A DNA stretch of 64,000 bases, from the NCBI GenBank assembly GCA_963753435.1, contig CAVWCF010000001.1, forward strand, positions 352,001-416,000, in the 5' to 3' direction. The stretch comes from an uncultured Actinomycetota bacterium (GTDB taxonomy: Bacteria > Actinomycetota > Actinomycetes > CAVWCF01). A program made the position numbers and the translations under genes. Positions 17,782 through 40,232 of the stretch are shown here, one piece after another; positions within the stretch are counted from its first letter, which is position 1, and each line of letters starts with the position of its first letter. Below the pieces are notes generated by a model that was given only the letters and a program-made list of their open reading frames with translations, was not told where the DNA came from and searched no databases.

Positions 17782-17855
17782 GCCCCGGTACTCCAACTGG
17801 TAGAGAGGGCGGTCTCAAACACCGCACAGTGTGGGTTCGAATCCCACCCGGGGTA
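17782..17855 (+). tRNA. tRNA-Leu(CAA), short variable loop, CCA not encoded
   Basis: Acceptor GCCCCGG/CCGGGGT, anticodon arm GCGGT-CTCAAAC-ACCGC, T arm GTGGG-TTCGAAT-CCCAC. Confidence 0.93.
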
Positions 17856-26395: not shown

Positions 26396-26404
26396 CGCCG
26401 AACG

Positions 26405-27184
26405 TCAGCTGAGGAGGCCGCCGTACCAGTCCGCGATGGCCTGGCCGAAGAAGATGGCCAGAAATGCCCCGATGATCATGCTCGGGCCGAACGGGAGCAT
26501 GGTCTTGCGGCCGGCACCACGGAACAGGATCAGCGCGATGCCGAGCAGGCCACCCACGAGGAACCCGAGGAACCCGCCGATGATGAGGATTCCCCAACCG
26601 AGGTAGCCCAGGTACATGCCGAGAACGCCCGCCAGCTTCACGTCCCCGAAGCCCATTCCGGCCGGGTAGATGAGGGCCAGCAGGAAGTAGAACGCGAACA
26701 GGGCCAGGCCGCCGCCGGCGACGCGCAGGATTGTCTCCGCCTCCCCGTTGAGCAGCGCAGCCCCGGCCAGCAGGACGAAAGCCACGGGGTAGGACGGCAA
26801 CACGATGGCATTCGGTAGGCGGCGCGTGTCCAGATCGATGGCGGACAGCGCCACGCCGATGGCCGCCAGGTACAGGTAGGCCGGCAGCGCCCAGTCCCAG
26901 CCGAACCGCAGAGCCACAAGGCCGAACAGAACGGCCGTGCCCGCCTCGACCAGGGGGTAGCGAATGCTGATGGGCCGCGCACAATTTCGGCATTGCCCAC
27001 GCAACACCAGCCAGGAGATGACCGGGATGTTGTCGCGAGGAGCGATCTCCGTCCCGCAGCCCGGACACCGGGACCTCGGCCGAACAACCGACTCCCCCGC
27101 CGGTACTCGGTGGATGACAACGTTCAGGAACGAGCCGATCAGCAGCCCGATCACGACGCAGAACGTCACCAACACAGCGGTCAT
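26405..27184 (-). CDS. pilD: Prepilin peptidase/N-methyltransferase
   Basis: GSFLNVVIHRVP, CxxC pairs (CPGC, CRNC), RYPLVE, ID, GMGFGDVKL, PFGP. Confidence 0.96.
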   Translation of the reverse strand: MTAVLVTFCVVIGLLIGSFLNVVIHRVPAGESVVRPRSRCPGCGTEIAPRDNIPVISWLVLRGQCRNCARPISIRYPLVEAGTAVLFGLVALRFGWDWALPAYLYLAAIGVALSAIDLDTRRLPNAIVLPSYPVAFVLLAGAALLNGEAETILRVAGGGLALFAFYFLLALIYPAGMGFGDVKLAGVLGMYLGYLGWGILIIGGFLGFLVGGLLGIALILFRGAGRKTMLPFGPSMIIGAFLAIFFGQAIADWYGGLLS

Positions 27185-27243
27185 CGCGGATGGACCCTAG
27201 GCGCGCTCCAGGTGACGGTGAACGACCGACACTCGGGGCACCG

Positions 27244-28640
27244 TCAGTTCGGGTTCAACTCCAACCACTGGGTTGTCCGAATGATCGACAGGAGGGGGAC
27301 TTCGACGTCCTCGTCGTAGTTGACGACTGCGTTCTTCACCTCGTTGCGGTCAGAGTCCGCCGGGCAACCCGAACTGGGAGCGTGGTTGCGGTCATTGGCG
27401 ATGACCGTGCCCGTGATGCCGTTCGAAGAGGTTTCCAGTTTGATCTGGTTGCCCGCGCCGAACAGCCCGATCCCACCTTCGAAGTTCGAAGTCACCTCGA
27501 GGTCGTCGTCGGCTACGAACACAACGCCCGGAAGGGCAGCGGCTTGGATACCGACCAGTTTGGCCGTGACCTTGCCGCCCTTCATGTAGCAACGGTCGGG
27601 GGGGCCGCCAGACGGTGCGCCTTCGGCGATCACCGTTGCCGCGGCCACGTTGGTGTTGCGGTCCAACTCCGCGTCGCCCTGGTACACGTAGTAGATGCCG
27701 CTACCCCAAGAGGTGGATCGCATCTCCCACAACGGTGCGGTCGTTCCGCTTCCAGGGGTGTACCCCCAGCCGCGGAACGTTCCACCGCCACTGACACGTT
27801 CCCGTTCAGGGCTGTGGCGCCGGTACATGGCGTGGCGGCGGGTTTCGCGCGATCCCGTCAGGACACAGGTCGTACCAACTGCCGTTGTAGCTGGTGGCGA
27901 AAGTCTCGTACATGAAACGCGGGTTGATCTCGGGCACGTACTCAAGTTGGTTGACTTGCCGCCGGAACCAGCGTCACCGACGGATCCGCAGACGCTGTAG
28001 GAGCCGACCGACGTCACGGTGCCGTTGACTGTCTGCGAGCAACCAGTACCGGCGGCTGAGCCGTTCGTGTGGACGTTGGCCTTGCCGCCAATCACTCCAG
28101 CGTCACATCCACGGTCACCGAGGACGAGAAGGCCAGGTCACCCGACGTCAGGATCGCGCTGCCCGGCTTGTACGGAGCGAAGAGGTACTCGGCCTTGAGC
28201 ATGCGGACATCGGAGTTGGCGGCCGCTCGGCTGGGGAACCACCCCATCGAGTACACACGTTGCGGTTGCGCCGGCCGGATCGATACGTAGTCACCGGACC
28301 AGTGCTCACCAGGTCGCCACCGTCGGCGGCCGCGAGCAGACTGTCACGAGCCCACGTGCGCTCATCCTCCTCGGACTGGCGGAGTGACTCCACGGCGCAT
28401 TCGGTCCGCACTGAAGGAGTTATCGGCCTGCAGTTCGGCCAGTGCGTCATCAATCCCTGCTTCGGCCGTCTGCAGCGATCTCCGACTTGAAGCGCGACAT
28501 GGCTGGCGCTGCTTCGGAGCGCACCGGTCGCGATCGCAACCATCACCGACATCAGACCGGTGGCTGCCACAGTGATCCAGAGCACGGTCAGCATGGCGAT
28601 ACCGCGATCTTCGACGGAGGCGGCGCTGCATCCGGGTCAT
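27244..28640 (-). CDS. PilX-like large minor pilin, multiply frameshifted
   Basis: Fragments reassemble to MTRMQRRL...RG|IAMLTVLWITVAATGL...A...AEAGIDDALAEL (PilX-type, no E5), followed by a beta-rich C-terminal domain ending WLELNPN. Confidence 0.65.
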
Positions 28641-28654
28641 GTGCTCTCCCAGGC

Positions 28655-29211
28655 TCAGGCGACGTCGTCGACGTTGCGAAGACGTTCGGCGAAATAGAGA
28701 TGCGAGTCGTGGTTGCCAGTGCCCGACGAACGCGTCGTAGTTCGAGTGCCGTCTCGACCAGACGGGTGTCCGGCGCCGGACGTCGTATGAGAACGCGATC
28801 TCGTTGACCAGGCTGCGCGCCTCAACGACTGTCGAAGTGCTTGAACCTTGCATACGCACCACGTCGAAGTGGTCCGGGATCCCCAGCGATCGCGCGTAGG
28901 CGCCCACTCCACCGACTCGTCGGCTTCGCGGCGATAGTTGGAGTTGTAGTCGATCCACAAGCACGAGCATGCTGGGGTGGCGCCGGCGTCGACGCCGCGG
29001 GCGTTGCGAATGTCCCGACCCAGCCGCTCCGACACCTTGCGGACGTCGGCCAGGCCGGTGGCCTCGTCATCGACCTGCGTCTTGGACCGCGCCATGACCG
29101 TGAAGGAAGTGACGGTTATGGCGCTGTGAAGGACAGCAGCAGCATCGTTACCATCAATTCGACGAGCGTGACACCTTCATCAGCACGCATTCGAGACAGC
29201 CGGGCAATCAT
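28655..29211 (-). CDS. PilW-like minor pilin, frameshifted
   Basis: Manual translation from ATG 29211: MIARLSRMRADEG|VTLVELMVTMLLL; continues in another frame ...ERLGRDIRNA...; ATGA overlap with the upstream gene. Confidence 0.7.
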
Positions 29212-30838
29212 TGCGGGATCACCAGCGAACTCGGCGCGGAAGCCCAGTCGTAGGCCACACGCACGGCGGTCGGCGCTCGCCCGGGAGGGTGGCGCGCATG
29301 ACCAAGTACTTGTTCTTGGTGACCGAGAAGTTGCTTGCGATCGTAACGGGACAATAAGGGCGCGAATGTGGAGTTGCAGTCATACAGCGTGGCGGTGCCA
29401 GTGCCTTCGCTGCCGAAGTGAGCCCAACGAGCGGAGTTCGCCGTGCCCGACGCCACATCGACAGTCAGTGCCCCCGCAGTCGGCATCAGGCAACCGATGT
29501 AGAGCGTCACGACCGCCGTACCCGCTGTGAAGTTCTCCTTGACAGGTGCCTGATAGCGCCAGTCGGCGACGCGGTCTCCGGTTGGTCTCCGTGGTCACGG
29601 CACCACCCTTGTTCAGGTAGCGCCCGTACGCGCCGGGCTTCCCCACCGAGTAGTCGTGGGCGGCGGCTTGGAGCGAACCGTTTGGTCCACGGTGGAGTGT
29701 TGCCCCGTTGTTCGCGTGGGAGCCCCCGGGCTGTTCGTGCAAGTAGTAGGTCGGGAAGGAGCAGGCCGGAACCACACTGCGCGGTGGGTAGCGGCCACGG
29801 ATCCTGCGTCTTGCCCGGTGCTACGGTCGAAGTCGGCGACGGCGACGGAGTTGGACTGACCGTACCGGTGGGTGTCGGCGACGGCAGCGGGCCCGATGCC
29901 GTAGACATGGTCAGCGACAGCGGCAGCGGCCGCGGCGCTTGCTGCGGCGGGCTGACGGCTGGACAACCTCCAGTCACCGTTCCACGTCCCGGTCGAGCTC
30001 GGTGCGGTCGCGACGCCAAGGAAGAAGTCGTCCGCATTGACTTCGACTGGGCCCGTGTCCACGCGTCCGTCGCCGTCGGTGTCGGTGAGCGCGATCATGT
30101 CCAGAGGCATCCTTAGCGCCGTCACCGTTGAGGTCCTGGTAGTAGGTAAAGGTCATCCCAAAGCCGGCCCATCGATGTTCCAGGCGTCGCGCGCTCCGTA
30201 GTTGTGGACTTTGAAGCCGTACACGACCTCGGTGCCCGGCCCCGCGTAATCGACGCGGACGATGTCGGCTCGAGAACGAGAACCGCGGCAACGGCAGGCC
30301 GCGACGAGTTTCGGTCACCAGCGTGGAGATCTGCTGGGTCTGTCGTCTGTCCGCCGCACGGACCACTCGACGACGATGGTGAGCTCGCCGGGTGTCAGTG
30401 GCGTAGCCAGCCGGTGATGTGACGTAGGTGGACATCGTGTACTCGGTGGCGTCGTGGTCTCCTGCGTGATGTGCGGGTTCAGCGGCTCGTCATACCGGTG
30501 GGCAGGATAGATCAGGGTTCCGGCCATCCCGGTGCCTGGATCGAAGGTGTTGCTGACGTTCGGCGATCTGAGGATCGTGCCGTCCGCGTCGGAGTGCGCC
30601 ATGTTGATGAAGACCAGCGCCCGCATCGTCTCGGTCGATTGAACGTCATGTCGACGGCCATCTGGTTCTGGCGGGCAGTCAGACCGCCCTTCAGCGCCAT
30701 CATCGTGGCGGCGGCCAGCGACATGAAGACGAACGCCGCGATCGAGAGTGCGATGACGGTCTCGATCAGCGTGAAGCCGGCAGTCGCGCGGCCGGAGATG
30801 CGGGACCGCAGACGATTGACGATTCGGGTCGCAGTCAC
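29208..30838 (-). CDS. Large modular minor pilin (PilV-like N-terminus plus putative adhesin domains), multiply frameshifted
   Basis: AAGGAG RBS, GTG 30838, G|FTLIETVIALSI; later fragments include DLNGDG, DTDGDG and a PT-rich linker, ending SSLVIPQ*. Confidence 0.65.
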
Positions 30839-31231
30839 GGGCACACTCCTTGTAGTGGACGGCCGGACAGCGAATCGAAGTACCAGGACTCGGCCTAGCA
30901 GCGCATGGTCGGCTTCGACGCAGTAGCCGGTGATGTCGGCGCGGCTGACGATCAACGTCACGTTCTCGGACCCGTTGCCGATCTCGCCTTGGATGTCCGC
31001 AAGCGTCATCCCGGTGAAGTCCCCTCGCTGCGCGACAGACCAGCTCTCTGCGCCGGTGGCGGCAGCCTTCAAGTCGTTCTGGAGTGCCGCGCGCCAGCCG
31101 TTCTCCCGCTGGTTCAGGAAGGCGGGGATCGCGATGGCCGCCAGGATCCCGATGATGATCATGACGACGAGGAGCTCGATGAGGGTGAACCCGCCATCGT
31201 CCCCGCCGGCGGGTGGCTGCAGCCGTCGCAT
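30835..31231 (-). CDS. pilA: Second type IV pilin, paralogue of the major pilin; one frameshift near 30892
   Basis: GG|FTLIELLVVMIIIGILAAIAIPAFLNQRENGW; the shifted frame gives ESWYFDSLSGRPLQGVCP*, matching the paralogue's ENWNYQSNVGTPQDGACP*. Confidence 0.85.
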
Positions 31232-31238
31232 GCCGCGT

Positions 31239-31268
31239 TCATCGGCACTAATACGCCCCGCACTTGAC
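31239..31268 (-). promoter_or_regulatory. Sigma-28-type promoter, probably leaderless, for the second pilin and minor pilins
   Basis: GTCAAG-N16-GCCGATGA, 7 nt before ATG 31231; no RBS. Confidence 0.65.
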
Positions 31269-31279
31269 TGCGACAAATG

Positions 31280-31313
31280 AGTGAGGGGCGACCCTTTCGG
31301 GCCGCCCCTCACT
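31280..31313 (-). terminator. Terminator after the major pilin
   Basis: Minus strand AGTGAGGGGCGGCCC-GAAA-GGGTCGCCCCTCACT. Confidence 0.82.
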
Positions 31314-31331: not shown

Positions 31332-31736
31332 TCACGGGCAAGCGCCGTCCTGCGGCGTACCCACGTTGCTCTGGTAGTTCCAGTTCTCGCCAGTCAACTG
31401 GGCGTGCGTGCCGCCGAGGCAGTACGAGTTGCCGTCAGCAGCCACCGTCACCGCGACGGTCACGTCAGCGGACTGGTTGAAGCCCTCGGCGGTCAGGTCG
31501 GCCGCCACCATGCCGGTGTAGGAACCGTCGTTCTGGGTCGCGAAGGACTCCGCGGCGACCGCGGCGTTCTTCAGGTCGGACTCGACCGTCGCACGCCAGC
31601 CGTTCTCCCGCTGACGCAGGAAGGTCGGGATGGCGATGGCGGCCAGAATGCCGATGATGATCATGACAACGAGCAGCTCGATCAGCGTGAAACCGCCGTC
31701 GCGCTCCTCCATGGACTTGCGAATCCGAGCGAGCAT
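31332..31736 (-). CDS. pilA: Major type IVa pilin
   Basis: Class III signal MLARIRKSMEERDGG|FTLIELLVVMIIIGILAAIAIP; C-terminal Cys pair; strong RBS GGGAGGGG; own promoter and terminator. Confidence 0.93.
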   Translation of the reverse strand: MLARIRKSMEERDGGFTLIELLVVMIIIGILAAIAIPTFLRQRENGWRATVESDLKNAAVAAESFATQNDGSYTGMVAADLTAEGFNQSADVTVAVTVAADGNSYCLGGTHAQLTGENWNYQSNVGTPQDGACP

Positions 31737-31797
31737 TGAAGCCCCTCCCTAGGGATGTGGTCTGAGCTCGCGGCAGGTCGGTCGGTGGCCTTGCGGC

Positions 31798-31877
31798 CGG
31801 CCGAGGTAGCTGGGCTGGCTCGGGGAGCCCCCTGGCTTTGCGCCCCCGCCTCGCGACGGGTTCGCCCGTTCTGGCCG
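31798..31877 (-). ncRNA. c-di-GMP-I (GEMM-I) riboswitch aptamer
   Basis: Minus strand CGGCCAGAACGGGCGAACCCGTC-GCGA-GGCGGGGGCGCAAAGCCAGGGGGCTCCCCGAGCCAGCCCAGCTACCTCGGCCG: P2 with GNRA loop, GCAAAGCC junction, 3' CTACC, P1 CGGCC/GGCCG. Confidence 0.85.
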
Positions 31878-31897
31878 TTCACTCACTGTCGGGATCA

Positions 31898-31926
31898 ACA
31901 TCGGGCCGGATACGGCCCGCCTTAAG
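31898..31926 (-). promoter_or_regulatory. Variant sigma-28-type promoter for the riboswitch-pilA transcript
   Basis: CTTAAG-N15-CCCGATGT, ending ~20 nt before the aptamer. Confidence 0.6.
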
Positions 31927-31972: not shown

Positions 31973-32005
31973 CAGACGGGGCCGCCCCTGGGGCGGCCCC
32001 GTCTG
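31973..32005. terminator. Hairpin terminator after pilC
   Basis: CAGACGGGGCCGCCCC-T-GGGGCGGCCCCGTCTG. Confidence 0.82.
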
Positions 32006-34966: not shown

Positions 34967-36631
34967 TCAGGCCACTACGCGGAAGATCTCGGCCAAGCTG
35001 GTGGTCCCGTCGAGCACCTTGGCCAACCCGTCGGATCGCAGCGATTCCATGCCTTCGCCCGCGGCCAGCTCCGCGATCGCAGTTGAGGACGCCCGTTCCA
35101 CCGCGAGGCGTTCCACACCCTCGCTAACGGTCATCACCTCGTGCAGGGCCAGTCGCCCTCGGTAGCCGGTCTGGCTGCATTGGGAGCAGCCCGCGGCTTG
35201 GTACAACGTCGGCAGCGGGTCGCCCTCCGACCACGGGAACCGGGCCTCGCGTAGAGCGTCAGGCGTGGGCGTGTACTGCTCTTTGCACTTGCTACAGAGT
35301 CGGCGCGCCAGGCGCTGTGCCAGTACGCATTCCATCGCCGACCCGACCAGGAAGGGCTCGATGCCCATTTCGGTCAATCGGGTGACAGCACTTGGGGCGT
35401 CATTGGTGTGCAAGGTCGCCAGCACCAGGTGACCGGTGAGCGCGGCCTCGATAGCGATCTGGGCCGTCTCGTGGTCCCGGATCTCACCGATCAGGACGAT
35501 GTCCGGGTCCGAACGCAGGATCGACCGCAGCGCCGACGCGAAAGTAAGGCCGGCCTTGTTGTTGACCTGAACCTGGTTCACGCCCGCGAGTCGGTATTCG
35601 ACCGGATCCTCAACGGTGATGACGTTCACATCGGGACGGTTGAGGATGTTCAGCGTGCTGTAGAGGGTGGTGGACTTACCTGAGCCGGTGGGGCCGGTAA
35701 CCAACAACATCCCGTAGGGCTTCGTGAACGACTGGCTCCAGCGGTCGTAGTTGCCCTGCCGGAAACCCAGATCGGCCAGGTCCAGACTTGCCGTGGAGTT
35801 GTCCAGGACACGCATGACCACCTTTTCGCCCCACACGGTCGGCAGCGTGGCCACGCGCAGGTCGATCTTCTTGCCATGCACCTGGACGGACAACCGCCCG
35901 TCCTGTGGGATGCGGCGCTCTGCGATGTCCATGTCGGCCATGATCTTCAAGCGGCTGATCACCGCCGATTGAATGGACTTGGGGCTCTTCATCACCTCGT
36001 GCAGCACCCCGTCGATGCGGTACCGGACCTTGAGTTCACGCTCGGCCGGCTCCAAGTGGATGTCCGACGCCCGGTCCTGGATCCCCTGCATGATGAGGAC
36101 GTTCACGTACTTGACGATCGGTGCGTCGTCGACGGCCTGGGTCAGACCCGAAAGTTCGTCGTCTTCGTCCTCCGCCTCCATCGCGGCGGCGAGGTTGTCG
36201 AGGTCCCCGTCGGCACGGTGGTAGCGGTCAATCGCGGCCAGCGTGTCCGCCAGAGTGGCGACCACCGGCCGTACATCCCGTCCCGACATTGACCGAACGT
36301 CATCGATCGCGACGACATTTGCCGGGTCCGCCATCGCCAGCAGCAACCGGCCGTCCTCGAAACCGATCGGCAGCACGGTGTGGCGGCGACAGACCGCCGC
36401 CGGAACCATTCCCACAGCTGCCCCGTCGACTGCATGTTCGCTTAGGTCGACGAAGGGAAGTCCGATCTGGGCGGCAAGAGCCTGAACCAACTGGGTCTCG
36501 TTGACGAAACCCTTGTCCACGAGGACGCGACCAAGGCTGCGGCCCAGACGCCGCTGGTCGTCCAACGCCGCGGTCAACTGCTCTTGCGTGACCAGACCGT
36601 TGGCGAGCAGAACGTCACCAAGTTGCCGCAC
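34967..36631 (-). CDS. pilB: Extension ATPase PilB with an N-terminal MshEN-like domain
   Basis: ASDIHLEP, PQDGR, GPTGSGKSTTLY, TVEDPVEY, LR.DPD, CxxC...CxxC zinc motif, GYRGR. Confidence 0.95.
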   Translation of the reverse strand: MRQLGDVLLANGLVTQEQLTAALDDQRRLGRSLGRVLVDKGFVNETQLVQALAAQIGLPFVDLSEHAVDGAAVGMVPAAVCRRHTVLPIGFEDGRLLLAMADPANVVAIDDVRSMSGRDVRPVVATLADTLAAIDRYHRADGDLDNLAAAMEAEDEDDELSGLTQAVDDAPIVKYVNVLIMQGIQDRASDIHLEPAERELKVRYRIDGVLHEVMKSPKSIQSAVISRLKIMADMDIAERRIPQDGRLSVQVHGKKIDLRVATLPTVWGEKVVMRVLDNSTASLDLADLGFRQGNYDRWSQSFTKPYGMLLVTGPTGSGKSTTLYSTLNILNRPDVNVITVEDPVEYRLAGVNQVQVNNKAGLTFASALRSILRSDPDIVLIGEIRDHETAQIAIEAALTGHLVLATLHTNDAPSAVTRLTEMGIEPFLVGSAMECVLAQRLARRLCSKCKEQYTPTPDALREARFPWSEGDPLPTLYQAAGCSQCSQTGYRGRLALHEVMTVSEGVERLAVERASSTAIAELAAGEGMESLRSDGLAKVLDGTTSLAEIFRVVA

Positions 36632-36842: not shown

Positions 36843-37412
36843 TCAACTCACCGCCTGGAAGTCGAGGCGGTCCAGCACCGTGTACAGGAGTTCGAGAAGT
36901 ACGCCCTTGACCGATTCCCGGTCCGTGGCCACACAACCGATCACCGGTGCCCAGTCATCGGAGCCGACCTGCTCTCGCACCCAAGCGACCTGCTCGTCGC
37001 TGAGTTCGGCGTGACGATTCACGGCAACGACATACGGAGCCGAAGTAAGTCCCCGGAACGCCTGCAGGATGCCGGCTGCTTCAGCCATCGAATCCGGTCG
37101 GTTCGGGTCGACGAGCAGCACGTAGCCAACCGTGCCCGTGCTCACGACATCCCACATGAAGTCGAAACGCTCCTGACCCGGCGTCCCGAACAAGTAGAGG
37201 ACCAGGTCTCGGTCGATGCTGATCCGCCCGAAATCCATGGCGACCGTGGTCTCGCGCTTGGTGGACCGCGTCTCGTCGGTAACCTCCCGCTCCGTCGACA
37301 GGACGGTGATCTCGCTGATCGTCCGGATCAGCGTCGTCTTGCCAGCCGCAAACGGGCCCGTGATCACGATCTTGACCGCCTGACCGGCGTTACCCCGACC
37401 CCGGCCGGCCAT
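36843..37412 (-). CDS. Small Ras-like GTPase (MglA/CvnD family)
   Basis: KIVITGPFAAGKTT, TTVAMDFG, LYLFGTPGQERFDFMWD, VVAVNR. Confidence 0.92.
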   Translation of the reverse strand: MAGRGRGNAGQAVKIVITGPFAAGKTTLIRTISEITVLSTEREVTDETRSTKRETTVAMDFGRISIDRDLVLYLFGTPGQERFDFMWDVVSTGTVGYVLLVDPNRPDSMAEAAGILQAFRGLTSAPYVVAVNRHAELSDEQVAWVREQVGSDDWAPVIGCVATDRESVKGVLLELLYTVLDRLDFQAVS

Positions 37413-38509
37413 CAGATGTCCTTCACGCCGGCGATCAGGCGCAGCATCAGGCTGCGATTCAGCCCCGGTTCACCGCCGTCGGTTCCAGTCGCCGCTAGCA
37501 ACTCGGCTTCAGCTGGGGGGGCGTCGACGTCTTGCTCCGGGCCCACCGGGTCCGACCCGGGTTCGACTTCCGGCGGTGTGACCGGGTCGAAGTTGACTGG
37601 TTCTCCGGACGCCGTGGCCGGATGTAGCGGCAACTCCACCTCGATCAGGGAATCGTCGGCCGACGGCGCCTGCTCGACGAGGTCCGACGGCTGCGCCGGC
37701 TCGGTTGGCGGCGTCACCACCACGGGGGCATTCCCCGCTGTCGCCGAATCGCCCTCGACCGGCCCGAGGAGCGCATGCCGACGACGCACCGAGGTCACGT
37801 GGTCGCCGCGGCGGTCGCGAACCATAAGCAGGCCACGGTCGAAGAGATTCGCCAGGGTGGTGACGACGGCGAAACGGCCACAACCGGTTAGATCCACCAA
37901 GTCGGCCAGCGTCCGCTCACCGTCAATGAGAGCCAGCAGTGCCCACTCGTCCCGAGTCGCCGTCGGGTCCTGAGGCAGCACCACGGGCATGGTCAGGACG
38001 ACGTCGGCGTCGAGCAGGTCCGCCGGCACCGACGACCAGGTCTCACCGCGGGCGCCCGCCTCAGTGATCAGCCGATCCGCGGCCAGCTCCACTCCGACGT
38101 CGTCGGGGTTGGTTGTGTCGACGTGGAACGAGAAGTCCCCGTCTGGCCACTGCATCAGTTCGAACACTGCGTCGACGGACTGCTCGGTAGCGGCGGCCAC
38201 AACCAGCTCACGATCGACCTGTCCGCTGAGGATGAGCAACGCACCCAGGCCGTCGGCAACACCCTCGGTCAGTTCCTTGACGGCAACCGTGATCGCGTCG
38301 TCGTCGACCGCGCCACTGCCGATCAATCGCCTAGCCAAGGACTGTCGGCCCAGATCGGCTGTCGCCCCGGTGATCTGTCCGTCGCGGAAGTAGACCGCAC
38401 CGGACCCGGCCGAACCACGCAACAGCAACGCGCCGGTCTTGCGCGTCGAACTGAGCAACCCGAACACGTCGGGGAGGCTGAAGGCGCCGAGTGAACCTTC
38501 CAATCGCAT
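37412..38509 (-). CDS. DUF4388 (PATAN-like) domain protein with winged-HTH
   Basis: LEGSL..FSLPDVF.LL....KTG.L...G.VYFRDG.I; F.LMQW.DG.F.F; EW.LLALIDGERTLADL...L.DRGLL. Confidence 0.85.
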   Translation of the reverse strand: MRLEGSLGAFSLPDVFGLLSSTRKTGALLLRGSAGSGAVYFRDGQITGATADLGRQSLARRLIGSGAVDDDAITVAVKELTEGVADGLGALLILSGQVDRELVVAAATEQSVDAVFELMQWPDGDFSFHVDTTNPDDVGVELAADRLITEAGARGETWSSVPADLLDADVVLTMPVVLPQDPTATRDEWALLALIDGERTLADLVDLTGCGRFAVVTTLANLFDRGLLMVRDRRGDHVTSVRRRHALLGPVEGDSATAGNAPVVVTPPTEPAQPSDLVEQAPSADDSLIEVELPLHPATASGEPVNFDPVTPPEVEPGSDPVGPEQDVDAPPAEAELLAATGTDGGEPGLNRSLMLRLIAGVKDI

Positions 38510-38529
38510 TCAGTTCACCCCCCGATCGA

Positions 38530-39285
38530 TCACTGCCAGCCGTTGCTGCTGCGTGCGGACGAAGGTGCCCAAACCACATTCGGTGTGGAGACGTCTTCGT
38601 CAGCAGCGGCCGCGAGCACGGTCGGCGGAGCAGCTGGAGGGACCAGGTCGGATGGGTTGCGCTGGGAAATCACCAACGGCGGTGCCGATGTGACCGGCTC
38701 CTCCTTGTCTTCCCCTGCGTCGCCGTCCCCCGCGCCTTCTTCGGCATTGGTTGCGGCCGGAGCCTCGGCAGCCGCCGTGGGCTCGATCTCCGTGCCTACG
38801 GCAGCTGCCGTCTCGGGCTCGGTAATCGACACATCCAGAGCCGGCTCCGGAGGCGCGACAGCCGACACCCGAGCGGGCGGCACCTCAGGCACCGCGGGGC
38901 CACCGAGAGCGGCGGCCACGTCCCTTGCGGCGCGTTTGACCTCGAAGAGCATCAACCCGGCCTTGGCCGCGCGATCGGCGACGGCGACCAGGACCGCTTC
39001 GTCATCCGCGGACACGAGGAAGACGGTTCCGTCGTCACCCTCCACGTACACCTGCTGCAGGCCGCCACGGCCGAGTCCGTCAGCGGCGCGCTCACCGAGC
39101 GAAAGCAAAGCGGCGCTCATTGCGGCCACGCGATCCTCATCCATCCCCTCGGGCAGCGCCGATGCCATGGGAAGCCCGTCGAAGGAAACGACGGCCGCCG
39201 CCTCCAGTTGCGGGGCCCGGCGAAGCAGGTCCGTGAGGACGCGGTCCAAGGCGGCCTCAACGCCGCGTGCCGGAAGATCGCTCAT
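38530..39285 (-). CDS. Roadblock/LC7 protein (MglB-like) with a long disordered C-terminal tail
   Basis: AAAVVSFDGLPMASALP...DRVAAMSAALLSLGERA...LGRGGLQQVYVEG..G; RBS GAGGAG before ATG 39285. Confidence 0.9.
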   Translation of the reverse strand: MSDLPARGVEAALDRVLTDLLRRAPQLEAAAVVSFDGLPMASALPEGMDEDRVAAMSAALLSLGERAADGLGRGGLQQVYVEGDDGTVFLVSADDEAVLVAVADRAAKAGLMLFEVKRAARDVAAALGGPAVPEVPPARVSAVAPPEPALDVSITEPETAAAVGTEIEPTAAAEAPAATNAEEGAGDGDAGEDKEEPVTSAPPLVISQRNPSDLVPPAAPPTVLAAAADEDVSTPNVVWAPSSARSSNGWQ

Positions 39286-39336
39286 CCAAGTTCTCCTCGC
39301 GCATGGCAGCGCCGACACCCGGCGCACTTGAGTTCT

Positions 39337-39365
39337 CACTCGGCGCATCCGGCCAACTTCTTGAG
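39337..39365 (-). promoter_or_regulatory. Sigma-28-type promoter for the roadblock-DUF4388-GTPase operon
   Basis: CTCAAG-N15-GCCGAGTG. Confidence 0.72.
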
Positions 39366-39425
39366 TGGTCGAACGCCCACTGCGCAACGCCCGCGATTGC
39401 GACAAGCCGCTCAGGTCGGGCCAGG

Positions 39426-40232
39426 TCAGGCCAGGCCGGACGCCGCTGCCTCCCGCATGGCCGACTGCGGAGCCGGCCGGCCAGTCATGGCGGTCACCTG
39501 GGCGAAGGCCTGATGCAGGAGCAACTCCAGCCCACTCAACGCCGCCGCGCCGGAACGAACCCAGGCCGTGGCCAACGGGGTGGGCCATGCGTCGTAAACG
39601 ACGTCAAACAACCAGCCGGGGCTAGCGGGGACGCGTTCGACCAGACCGTCGGCCACCCCGGTTGGCACTGTGCTGATGACAAGGTCGGCATCCAGTTCGG
39701 CATGTTCCCAGTCGACTATCACGCCCTCATCGGCGGCGGCCACGGCGAGGACCGACTCAGCTGCCGCTGGGCGGCGCCCGACCACGGCAAGACGACGGAC
39801 CCCCAGGGACCGGGCCGCGGCGGCAGCCGACCGGGCCGTCGCCCCAGTGCCCAGGATGACCAGAGATTCAACTCCGCCGACGCCGGCCTCAGCCAGCGCG
39901 CCGAGGAAACCGGCAACGTCGGTGTTCAGCCCCGTCCGCCCGCCGTCAGGTTCAAATAGCAGCGTGTTGGCCGCGCCAGTGGCCTCGACGTCCACCGACC
40001 AGGTGTCCAACAGCGGCAGGGCCGCCTCCTTCAGGGGCATGGTCAGGGACAACCCCCGCCACGAGTTGTCCCGCGTCGCCACGAAACCGGCCAGTTCATC
40101 GGCGGCACACTCCACAGCGGTGTAAGTCCAGTCCAGACCCAGGGCCGAGTAGGCGGCCCGGTGCAGGGCCGGGCTCAGGGAGTGGCTGACGGGCGAGCCC
40201 AGGACGGCGCAGCGCATCGCAGGTTCACTCAC
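39426..40232 (-). CDS. aroE: Shikimate dehydrogenase
   Basis: LGSPVSHSLSP.LH, GLSLTMPLK, ANT, NTD, GTGATA, DVVY, L.LLLHQA. Confidence 0.96.
   Translation of the reverse strand: MSEPAMRCAVLGSPVSHSLSPALHRAAYSALGLDWTYTAVECAADELAGFVATRDNSWRGLSLTMPLKEAALPLLDTWSVDVEATGAANTLLFEPDGGRTGLNTDVAGFLGALAEAGVGGVESLVILGTGATARSAAAAARSLGVRRLAVVGRRPAAAESVLAVAAADEGVIVDWEHAELDADLVISTVPTGVADGLVERVPASPGWLFDVVYDAWPTPLATAWVRSGAAALSGLELLLHQAFAQVTAMTGRPAPQSAMREAAASGLA

What the first reader, a model, noticed from the sequence alone, without database searches (positions are those of the whole stretch)
31737..31890. c-di-GMP-I riboswitch on the major pilin transcript
Seen: a full GEMM-I-like aptamer between a promoter motif and the pilA RBS, with terminators on both sides of the unit so that only the major pilin is affected. 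Aligned by eye to Vibrio Vc2, the specificity positions are G20 and C92, predicting c-di-GMP. P3 is compact, and no U-tract terminator is visible in the ~60 nt before the start codon. Established: riboswitch control of pilins is known in Clostridioides difficile (class II) and GEMM-I variants occur in Geobacter. Inference: translation- or stability-level control of pilin supply by c-di-GMP in an actinomycete.
Basis: partly seen in the sequence, partly recalled or inferred. Interest (0 to 1): 0.75.

Follow-up and report, generated by a model that had tools for sequence, protein, structure and literature searches.

The report
c-di-GMP riboswitch on actinomycete major pilin
The leader of this actinomycete's main pilus-subunit gene carries a genuine cyclic-di-GMP-type riboswitch behind a predicted WhiG promoter, a layout shared by many actinomycete families, so the signal that is known to silence WhiG likely also controls pilin translation, probably switching it off, though the direction is untested.

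Summary
Confirmed. Rfam c-di-GMP-I matches 31876-31802 (minus strand; 45 bits, cut-off 35); it is the genome's only copy. G20/A47/C92 predict c-di-GMP, and all four GGDEF enzymes are canonical. It ends 65 nt before pilA and lies behind a WhiG/sigma-28-type promoter; the genome has WhiG, a twin-motif RsiG and an MshEN-bearing PilB, and no flagellin was found. The layout is widespread: 60 of 151 sampled class genomes carry the aptamer, 58 of 84 hits precede the major pilin, and 53 of 59 pilin-linked hits have a strict WhiG motif. These leaders share a covarying 5' stem, an extended P1 and an anti-P1 strand, so a switch is likely. Direction is unresolved: the window copy folds as a translational OFF switch (bound form buries codons 1-4), but the family-wide lean is not significant. 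RNA contigs from three studies stop 11-15 nt short of the predicted start (weak hint). Known RNA class; I found no paper linking it to WhiG or actinomycete pilins. This scan reported the same arrangement on other DNA before.

The parts
31973..32005 (-). Strong hairpin after pilC (16-bp perfect arms), terminator-like, no canonical U-tract
   Evidence: z -6.56; not listed by the terminator scan
31898..31925 (-). Predicted WhiG/sigma-28 promoter: -35 TTAA (31925-31922), 16-nt spacer, -10 CCCGATGT (31905-31898)
   Evidence: consensus from bioRxiv 10.64898/2026.01.14.699351
31890..31890 (-). Predicted transcription start, 7 nt after the -10 octamer (GACA here, GUCA in most relatives)
   Evidence: inferred from conservation; RNA contigs stop at 31875-31879
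31881..31885 (-). 5' arm of basal stem P0, pairs with 31767-31763
   Evidence: fold; covariation
31802..31876 (-). c-di-GMP-I (GEMM-I) aptamer; G14 31871, G20 31866, C44 31842, A47 31839, C92 31806; extended P1 reaches 31799
31787..31798 (-). Small GNRA hairpin P4 after the aptamer
31766..31785 (-). Predicted switching strand: pairs with both P1 strands in the ligand-free fold and with codons 1-4 in the P1-formed fold
   Evidence: constrained folding; inferred
31763..31767 (-). 3' arm of P0
31742..31749 (-). Shine-Dalgarno-like purine run in a weak local hairpin
   Evidence: sequence
31332..31736 (-). pilA, major type IVa prepilin, 134 aa
   Evidence: (PF07963)
31280..31313 (-). Strong hairpin after pilA, terminator-like with a short U run
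   Evidence: z -6.59
31239..31267 (-). Second WhiG-like promoter (TCAA-N17-GCCGA) with an ATG at 31231, likely a leaderless start for the next pilin
   Evidence: similar motifs after pilA in 25 of 49 loci
34967..36631 (-). pilB extension ATPase with an MshEN domain (third predicted c-di-GMP input)
   Evidence: PF05157, 80.5 bits

Best explanation
This is a class I c-di-GMP riboswitch aptamer in the 5' leader of the major type IVa pilin gene, predicted to bind c-di-GMP and likely to shut off pilin translation, on a transcript likely made from a WhiG promoter. Shown: aptamer class, G20/A47/C92, position, promoter motif, conservation, and WhiG, RsiG and canonical cyclases in the genome. Inferred: without ligand, a downstream strand (31785-31766) holds both P1 strands and the P0 stem closes the leader, leaving only a weak hairpin at the ribosome site. 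With ligand, P1 forms, the strand is released and pairs over codons 1-4. High c-di-GMP would then stop new pilA transcription through RsiG-WhiG and silence the mRNA already made. That it is a working post-transcriptional c-di-GMP switch in either direction is about 0.85; the OFF direction is the weak step.
For: Rfam hit. G20 and C92 read c-di-GMP in Vc2, and A20 marks cGAMP types (PMC6140456, passages). 4 of 4 GGDEF domains carry the canonical Asp (rule from PMC6456294, passages). WhiG and RsiG with two E-x3-S-x2-R-x3-Q-x3-D motifs. 58 of 84 class hits precede the pilin. The structure P0+P1+P2+P3 pairs in 95.0% of cells, with 15 of 31 pairs changed on both sides; 0 of 500 shuffles reach this (35 leaders). 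Anti-P1 pairing beats shuffles in 13 of 16 families. Window copy: opening the start region costs 4.4 or 2.8 kcal/mol more with P1 formed (15 or 30 coding nt). With 15 coding nt, 28 of 52 leaders lean OFF and 6 lean ON. The 5' strand is complementary to codons 1-5 in 13 of 16 families but to codons 6-10 in 2 of 16. 53 of 87 genomes with pilin and RsiG have the pilin-linked aptamer, against 0 of 9 with pilin but no RsiG (kin are not independent).
Against: The OFF lean is not significant by family (11 vs 4 of 16, p 0.16) and fades with longer coding context (22 vs 14, then 21 vs 11). It is absent in 9 new metagenome leaders (3 vs 2, then 3 vs 4). Mean SD accessibility is unchanged in 57 leaders (0.46 vs 0.46), and in the window copy the SD itself opens slightly with P1 formed (-1.8 or -0.5). 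Pairing of the switch strand with the start region beats shuffles in only 8 of 16 families. Anti-P1 pairing shows no cognate-over-non-cognate advantage (4 of 16). P0 also occurs in leaders without an aptamer, so it is not switch-specific. Folding ignores pseudoknots, tertiary contacts and kinetics.
Confidence: 0.5

Rival explanations
1. Translational ON switch: ligand frees a purine strand that pairs with the anti-SD. Opposed to RsiG-WhiG, this gives pilin only in a middle band of c-di-GMP or just after it rises.
For: In families f15, f17 and f22 the switch strand matches the anti-SD with family-specific changes (cognate advantage -2.3 to -4.2 kcal/mol). A weak SD hairpin beats shuffles in 15 of 16 families. 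This pairing crosses P0, so the folding program cannot show both together. The SD of the window copy opens slightly when P1 forms. An MshEN domain on PilB fits c-di-GMP-activated piliation as in Vibrio MshE (PMC8325347 Discussion).
Against: Over all families the pairing is no better than non-cognate or shuffled (7 of 16 in both tests). The window copy lacks the purine strand (duplex -2.5 kcal/mol).
Confidence: 0.25
2. Control of mRNA lifetime or Rho-dependent termination: binding makes or breaks the 5' P0 stem and changes nuclease or Rho access, not ribosome access.
For: P0 starts about 5 nt from the predicted 5' end, covaries, is kept in aptamer-less leaders and weakens on average when P1 forms (1.9 to 1.1 bp in 45 leaders). 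The SD does not change on average.
Against: No direct data. In the window copy the clearest predicted change is at the start codon.
Confidence: 0.12
3. This copy is a decaying relic that no longer switches, as appears to have happened in family f17.
For: Low score, two internal-loop changes, near-miss -35 box, missing purine strand. Degenerate cores with an intact platform exist in L179, L192 and L194.
Against: All three ligand contacts, the GNRA loop, P1, P2 and P3 are intact. A replacement anti-P1 strand is present. RNA contigs match the leader with 1-2 differences and no gaps.
Confidence: 0.1
4. The ligand is 3',3'-cGAMP or another cyclic dinucleotide.
For: GEMM-I variants bind cGAMP in Geobacter (PMC8835794, passages). 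A20 versions precede pilins in G007 and G073.
Against: G20 here; wild-type Vc2 binds cGAMP at 10 uM against picomolar c-di-GMP; no Ser/Thr-type cyclase among the 4 GGDEFs. A CD-NTase was not searched for.
Confidence: 0.03

Closest known systems
c-di-GMP-I (GEMM-I) riboswitches, Rfam RF01051, e.g. Vibrio cholerae Vc2
   Same: Full-length model match above cut-off; G20/A47/C92; P1-P2-P3 junction; GNRA loop on P2.
   Different: Pilin-linked actinomycete copies mostly end CUCG after C92 (46 of 59) where other copies mostly end CGA (20 of 26); extended P1, basal P0 stem, anti-P1 strand, sigma-28 promoter. No actinomycete example tested in the papers I saw.
Clostridioides difficile pilin-operon riboswitch (CD3513-03; class II)
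   Same: A c-di-GMP riboswitch on type IV pilin genes in a monoderm (PMC11477304, passages).
   Different: Class II fold. Recalled, not read here: it is a transcriptional ON switch. Here class I, no terminator, one-gene unit.
RsiG-(c-di-GMP)-WhiG control of type IV pilus genes (Rubrobacter radiotolerans; predicted in Cellulomonadaceae and others)
   Same: WhiG-type promoters in the pil cluster; RsiG with c-di-GMP motifs.
   Different: The word riboswitch occurs 0 times in either paper's main text. The RNA layer on pilA is the added part.
Geobacter GEMM-Ib cGAMP riboswitches
   Same: Same fold.
   Different: A20 and Hypr cyclases there; G20 and canonical cyclases here.

Membership tests
c-di-GMP-I riboswitch (RF01051) | Covariance-model score at or above gathering threshold over the full model | tested here: met
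   45.0 vs 35 bits, positions 1-87
c-di-GMP-I riboswitch (RF01051) | Ligand contacts G20, A47, C92 | tested here: met
   G20 and C92 roles from PMC6140456; A47 role recalled
c-di-GMP-I riboswitch (RF01051) | P1, P2, P3 with covariation and a GNRA loop on P2 | tested here: met
   GNRA loop in 59 of 59
c-di-GMP-I riboswitch (RF01051) | In a 5' leader, sense to a gene | tested here: met
   65 nt before pilA; near-identical RNA contigs bridge aptamer and coding region
c-di-GMP-I riboswitch (RF01051) | Binds c-di-GMP and changes gene output | not testable with these tools
   needs probing and reporter assays
c-di-GMP-I-GGC variant (RF03167) | Score above 59 bits and G at position 47 | tested here: not met
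   48.8 bits; A47
GEMM-Ib cGAMP riboswitch | A at position 20; Hypr cyclase in the genome | tested here: not met
   G20; 4 of 4 GGDEFs have Asp
WhiG regulon promoter | T(A/C)AA-N16-GCCGA with exact -35 and intact CGA | tested here: inconclusive
   Window copy has TTAA and one -10 mismatch, failing the strict rule; the equivalent site passes in 53 of 59 hits; 4 such motifs in the pil cluster vs 0.37 expected
WhiG regulon promoter | WhiG and c-di-GMP-binding RsiG encoded | tested here: met
WhiG regulon promoter | WhiG-dependent transcription start | not testable with these tools
   contigs cannot map starts
Translational OFF expression platform | Ligand-bound fold occludes the ribosome site | tested here: inconclusive
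   yes in the window copy, not significant across families

The most novel reading that the evidence does not exclude
Across many Actinomycetes families, c-di-GMP reaches type IV pili at three stacked levels: RsiG-WhiG (transcription), a dedicated class I riboswitch subtype (pilin mRNA) and MshEN-PilB (assembly). In the boldest reading the riboswitch is an ON switch opposing RsiG, forming a band-pass circuit that makes pilin only at intermediate c-di-GMP, and the same leader has been re-tuned in some lineages (A20 versions, replaced cores).
Probability: 0.25. Interest if true: 0.72.

Novelty: new variant of a known kind. Interest (0 to 1): 0.5.

Why it matters
c-di-GMP signalling in Actinomycetota has been described through proteins (BldD, RsiG-WhiG). 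Here the major pilin is the main target of class I c-di-GMP riboswitches in the class sample (53 of 60 aptamer-bearing genomes), always in genomes with an RsiG-family match. A riboswitch on a transcript whose sigma factor answers to the same signal gives a simple testable question: do the two layers reinforce or oppose each other? The RNA class and ligand are ordinary, which caps the interest.

Tried and rejected
Intrinsic terminator in the leader: none. Sigma-70 promoter: none. My first model, an ON switch through switch-strand:anti-SD pairing, failed family-wide tests and is kept as a rival. Pairing of the P1 5' strand with the linker is not general (5 of 16 families). RNAalifold recovered only P2, P3 and a short 5' hairpin, not P0 or P1; P0 and P1 were named by me, so leans towards them. 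Using leaders with lost aptamers to infer direction gave mixed folds. Follow-up family searches added little. A Hypr cyclase for the A20 copies was not found in 28 readable of 30 fetched GGDEF loci, out of 69 matches: inconclusive. Lack of RNA contig cover upstream of 31879 and at 31246-31286 proves nothing; no DNA run continued past it. Named pilin loci of Kineococcus vitellinus, Cellulomonas rhizosphaerae, C. algicola, Actinotalea solisilvae, Nocardioides psychrotolerans, Cryobacterium and Leifsonia had no Rfam hit, so I cannot name a cultured carrier. Four papers were not held: PMC5304454, PMC4418906, PMC4418907, PMC4325102.

Full report
Observation. Rfam finds a full-length c-di-GMP-I aptamer at 31876-31802 on the minus strand, 45.0 bits against a cut-off of 35, the only one in this 2.17-Mb, 98% complete genome. 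G20, A47 and C92 lie at 31866, 31839 and 31806. In Vc2, G20 and C92 read the two guanines, and A20 marks cGAMP-binding variants (PMC6140456, passages). The GGC variant model stays below its cut-off. The aptamer ends 65 nt before the ATG of a 134-aa prepilin (31736-31332), in a type IVa cluster with pilB, pilT, pilC, pilD and pilMNO. No U-tract terminator lies in the leader. Strong hairpins flank the unit but lack canonical U-tracts. The copy is divergent: near the bottom of the score range, with two changes in the P2 internal loop.

Host signalling. The genome encodes four GGDEF proteins, all with the canonical Asp where Hypr cGAMP synthases have Ser or Thr (PMC6456294, passages). It has one FliA/WhiG-class sigma above cut-off, an RsiG with two c-di-GMP motifs, an MshEN domain on PilB, and no flagellin match. 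Actinomycetes is inferred from RsiG, which is limited to Actinomycetota, and from named pilin relatives; the order holds only three genomes, all with the aptamer.

Promoter. Upstream lies TTAA-N16-CCCGA (31925-31898), a near miss of the WhiG2 consensus T(A/C)AA-N16-GCCGA (bioRxiv 10.64898/2026.01.14.699351, passages and section 8). The strict motif is present in 53 of 59 pilin-linked hits, 20-30 nt from the aptamer, and in 6 of 26 other hits; without unpublished genomes 51 of 57, against 0 of 110 control windows. Four such motifs lie on the coding strand of the cluster against 0.37 expected. A further one with a 17-nt spacer follows the downstream hairpin, and similar motifs follow pilA in 25 of 49 loci, so pilA is likely its own unit. 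RsiG with c-di-GMP sequesters WhiG, and WhiG promoters in pil clusters are mapped in Rubrobacter (PMC8325347, passages and Discussion).

Spread. 60 of 151 class genomes have RF01051. Of the 84 hits, 58 lie 33-92 nt before a major pilin, in 53 genomes (59 of 85 with G002). Four genomes are flagged unpublished (G008, G027, G030, G036); without them 56 of 78 hits, in 51 of 56 genomes and 18 families. In the same sample 96 genomes have a pilin homologue and 105 an RsiG-family match (motifs not checked genome by genome). The pilin-linked aptamer occurs in 53 of 87 genomes with both and 0 of 9 with pilin only; kin are not independent. G-A-C specificity holds in 56 of 59. Aptamers also precede pilins in Solirubrobacterales MAGs and, more weakly, Egicoccus. 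The link is lineage-specific: a core pattern in metagenomes preceded a pilin in only 15 of 108 readable loci.

Leader anatomy. In 35 aligned leaders, a structure of basal stem P0, extended P1, P2 and P3 pairs in 95.0% of cells, with 15 of 31 pairs changed on both sides; 0 of 500 shuffles match it and slid controls reach 26-47%. I named P0 and P1; RNAalifold alone found P2 and P3. P0 is also better in cognate than non-cognate pairs (12 of 16 families), but persists in leaders with no aptamer. The 3' strand of P1 reads CUCG in 46 of 59 pilin-linked copies and pairs with a downstream strand in the free fold (2.9 bp on average in 45 leaders; better than shuffles in 13 of 16 families; no cognate advantage). 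This is the signature of a switch.

Direction. In the window copy the free fold sets the strand 31785-31766 against both P1 strands and closes P0; with P1 enforced, that strand pairs over codons 1-4, and opening the start region costs 4.4 or 2.8 kcal/mol more. The P1 state costs 5.0 kcal/mol in the ensemble, within reach of tight binding. Family-wide the picture is weak. SD accessibility is unchanged in 57 of the 59 leaders folded. In 52 leaders (unpublished, duplicate, short and unanchored rows dropped) 28 lean OFF and 6 ON with 15 coding nt, p 0.16 by family, and the lean fades with more coding sequence. Nine new metagenome leaders show none. The ON pairing is good in f15, f17 and f22 but not overall (7 of 16). 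I commit to translational OFF at 0.5, coherent with RsiG-WhiG, and give ON 0.25.

Expression. RNA runs hold the stretch. Contigs with 1-2 differences and no gaps bridge aptamer and coding region and stop at 31875, 31875, 31876 and 31879 in four runs of three studies, 11-15 nt short of the predicted start at 31890. This confirms the leader sequence independently of the assembly, and is only a weak hint for the start.

Literature. Searches for riboswitch with pili or pilin and Actinobacteria, Actinomycetota, GEMM or Cellulomonas (listings seen) gave no report of this link; neither WhiG paper contains the word riboswitch. Passages of PMC6916266 and PMC12452182 add nothing on it. C. difficile's pilin operon has a class II switch (PMC11477304, passages), and Geobacter has cGAMP-binding GEMM-I variants (PMC8835794, passages). 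The original GEMM papers were not held; their supplements may list such loci. Three earlier notes of this scan describe the same layout on other DNA.

Verdict. A real member of a known riboswitch class, with a distinct leader and an apparently unreported stacking on a c-di-GMP-controlled sigma factor. New variant of a known kind; interest 0.5.

Noticed in passing
window 26400-31230 (-): Genes downstream of pilA switch frame several times against G001 (near 30640, 30460 and 27460; the second pilin reads on past its expected end). G002, G039, G066 and G122 pilA copies also look frameshifted. Likely assembly indels.
   Followed up: partly
window 31267-31231 (-): WhiG-like promoter with an ATG 7 nt after the -10 box: likely leaderless mRNA for the second pilin; similar in G001, G130, G034, G079, G046, G018.
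   Followed up: partly
window 39364, 34963, 26394 (-): Further WhiG-like motifs before the roadblock/DUF4388/GTPase genes, pilT and pilM.
   Followed up: partly
window 36843-39588 (-): Roadblock/LC7, DUF4388 and small GTPase genes (MglB/MglA-like; name recalled) sit directly upstream of pilB, suggesting polarity control of pili.
   Followed up: no
L054 (G073), L069 (G007), L229: Pilin-linked aptamers with A20, the cGAMP-type signature, in actinomycetes; in G007 and G073 the switch strand is a 10-bp complement of the start-codon region. No Hypr cyclase in 28 GGDEF loci read of 69 matches.
   Followed up: partly
L179, L192, L194 (family f17); L181, L183 (family f14): Leaders keep promoter, P0, P1 strands and platform, but the aptamer core is replaced or degenerate with no Rfam match: relics, or variants with another ligand.
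   Followed up: partly
L028, L077, L017: Tandem pilA duplicates, each with its own promoter and aptamer (G099, G139, G058).
   Followed up: no
L092 (G000:C1:1292343): A second RsiG-family gene without the full c-di-GMP motifs has a WhiG-like promoter directly upstream.
   Followed up: no
non-pilin hits, e.g. L012, L013, L032, L079: The 26 other actinomycete aptamers mostly precede genes whose starts look like signal peptides of secreted proteins; not annotated here.
   Followed up: no
window 17782-17855 (+): tRNA gene.
   Followed up: no
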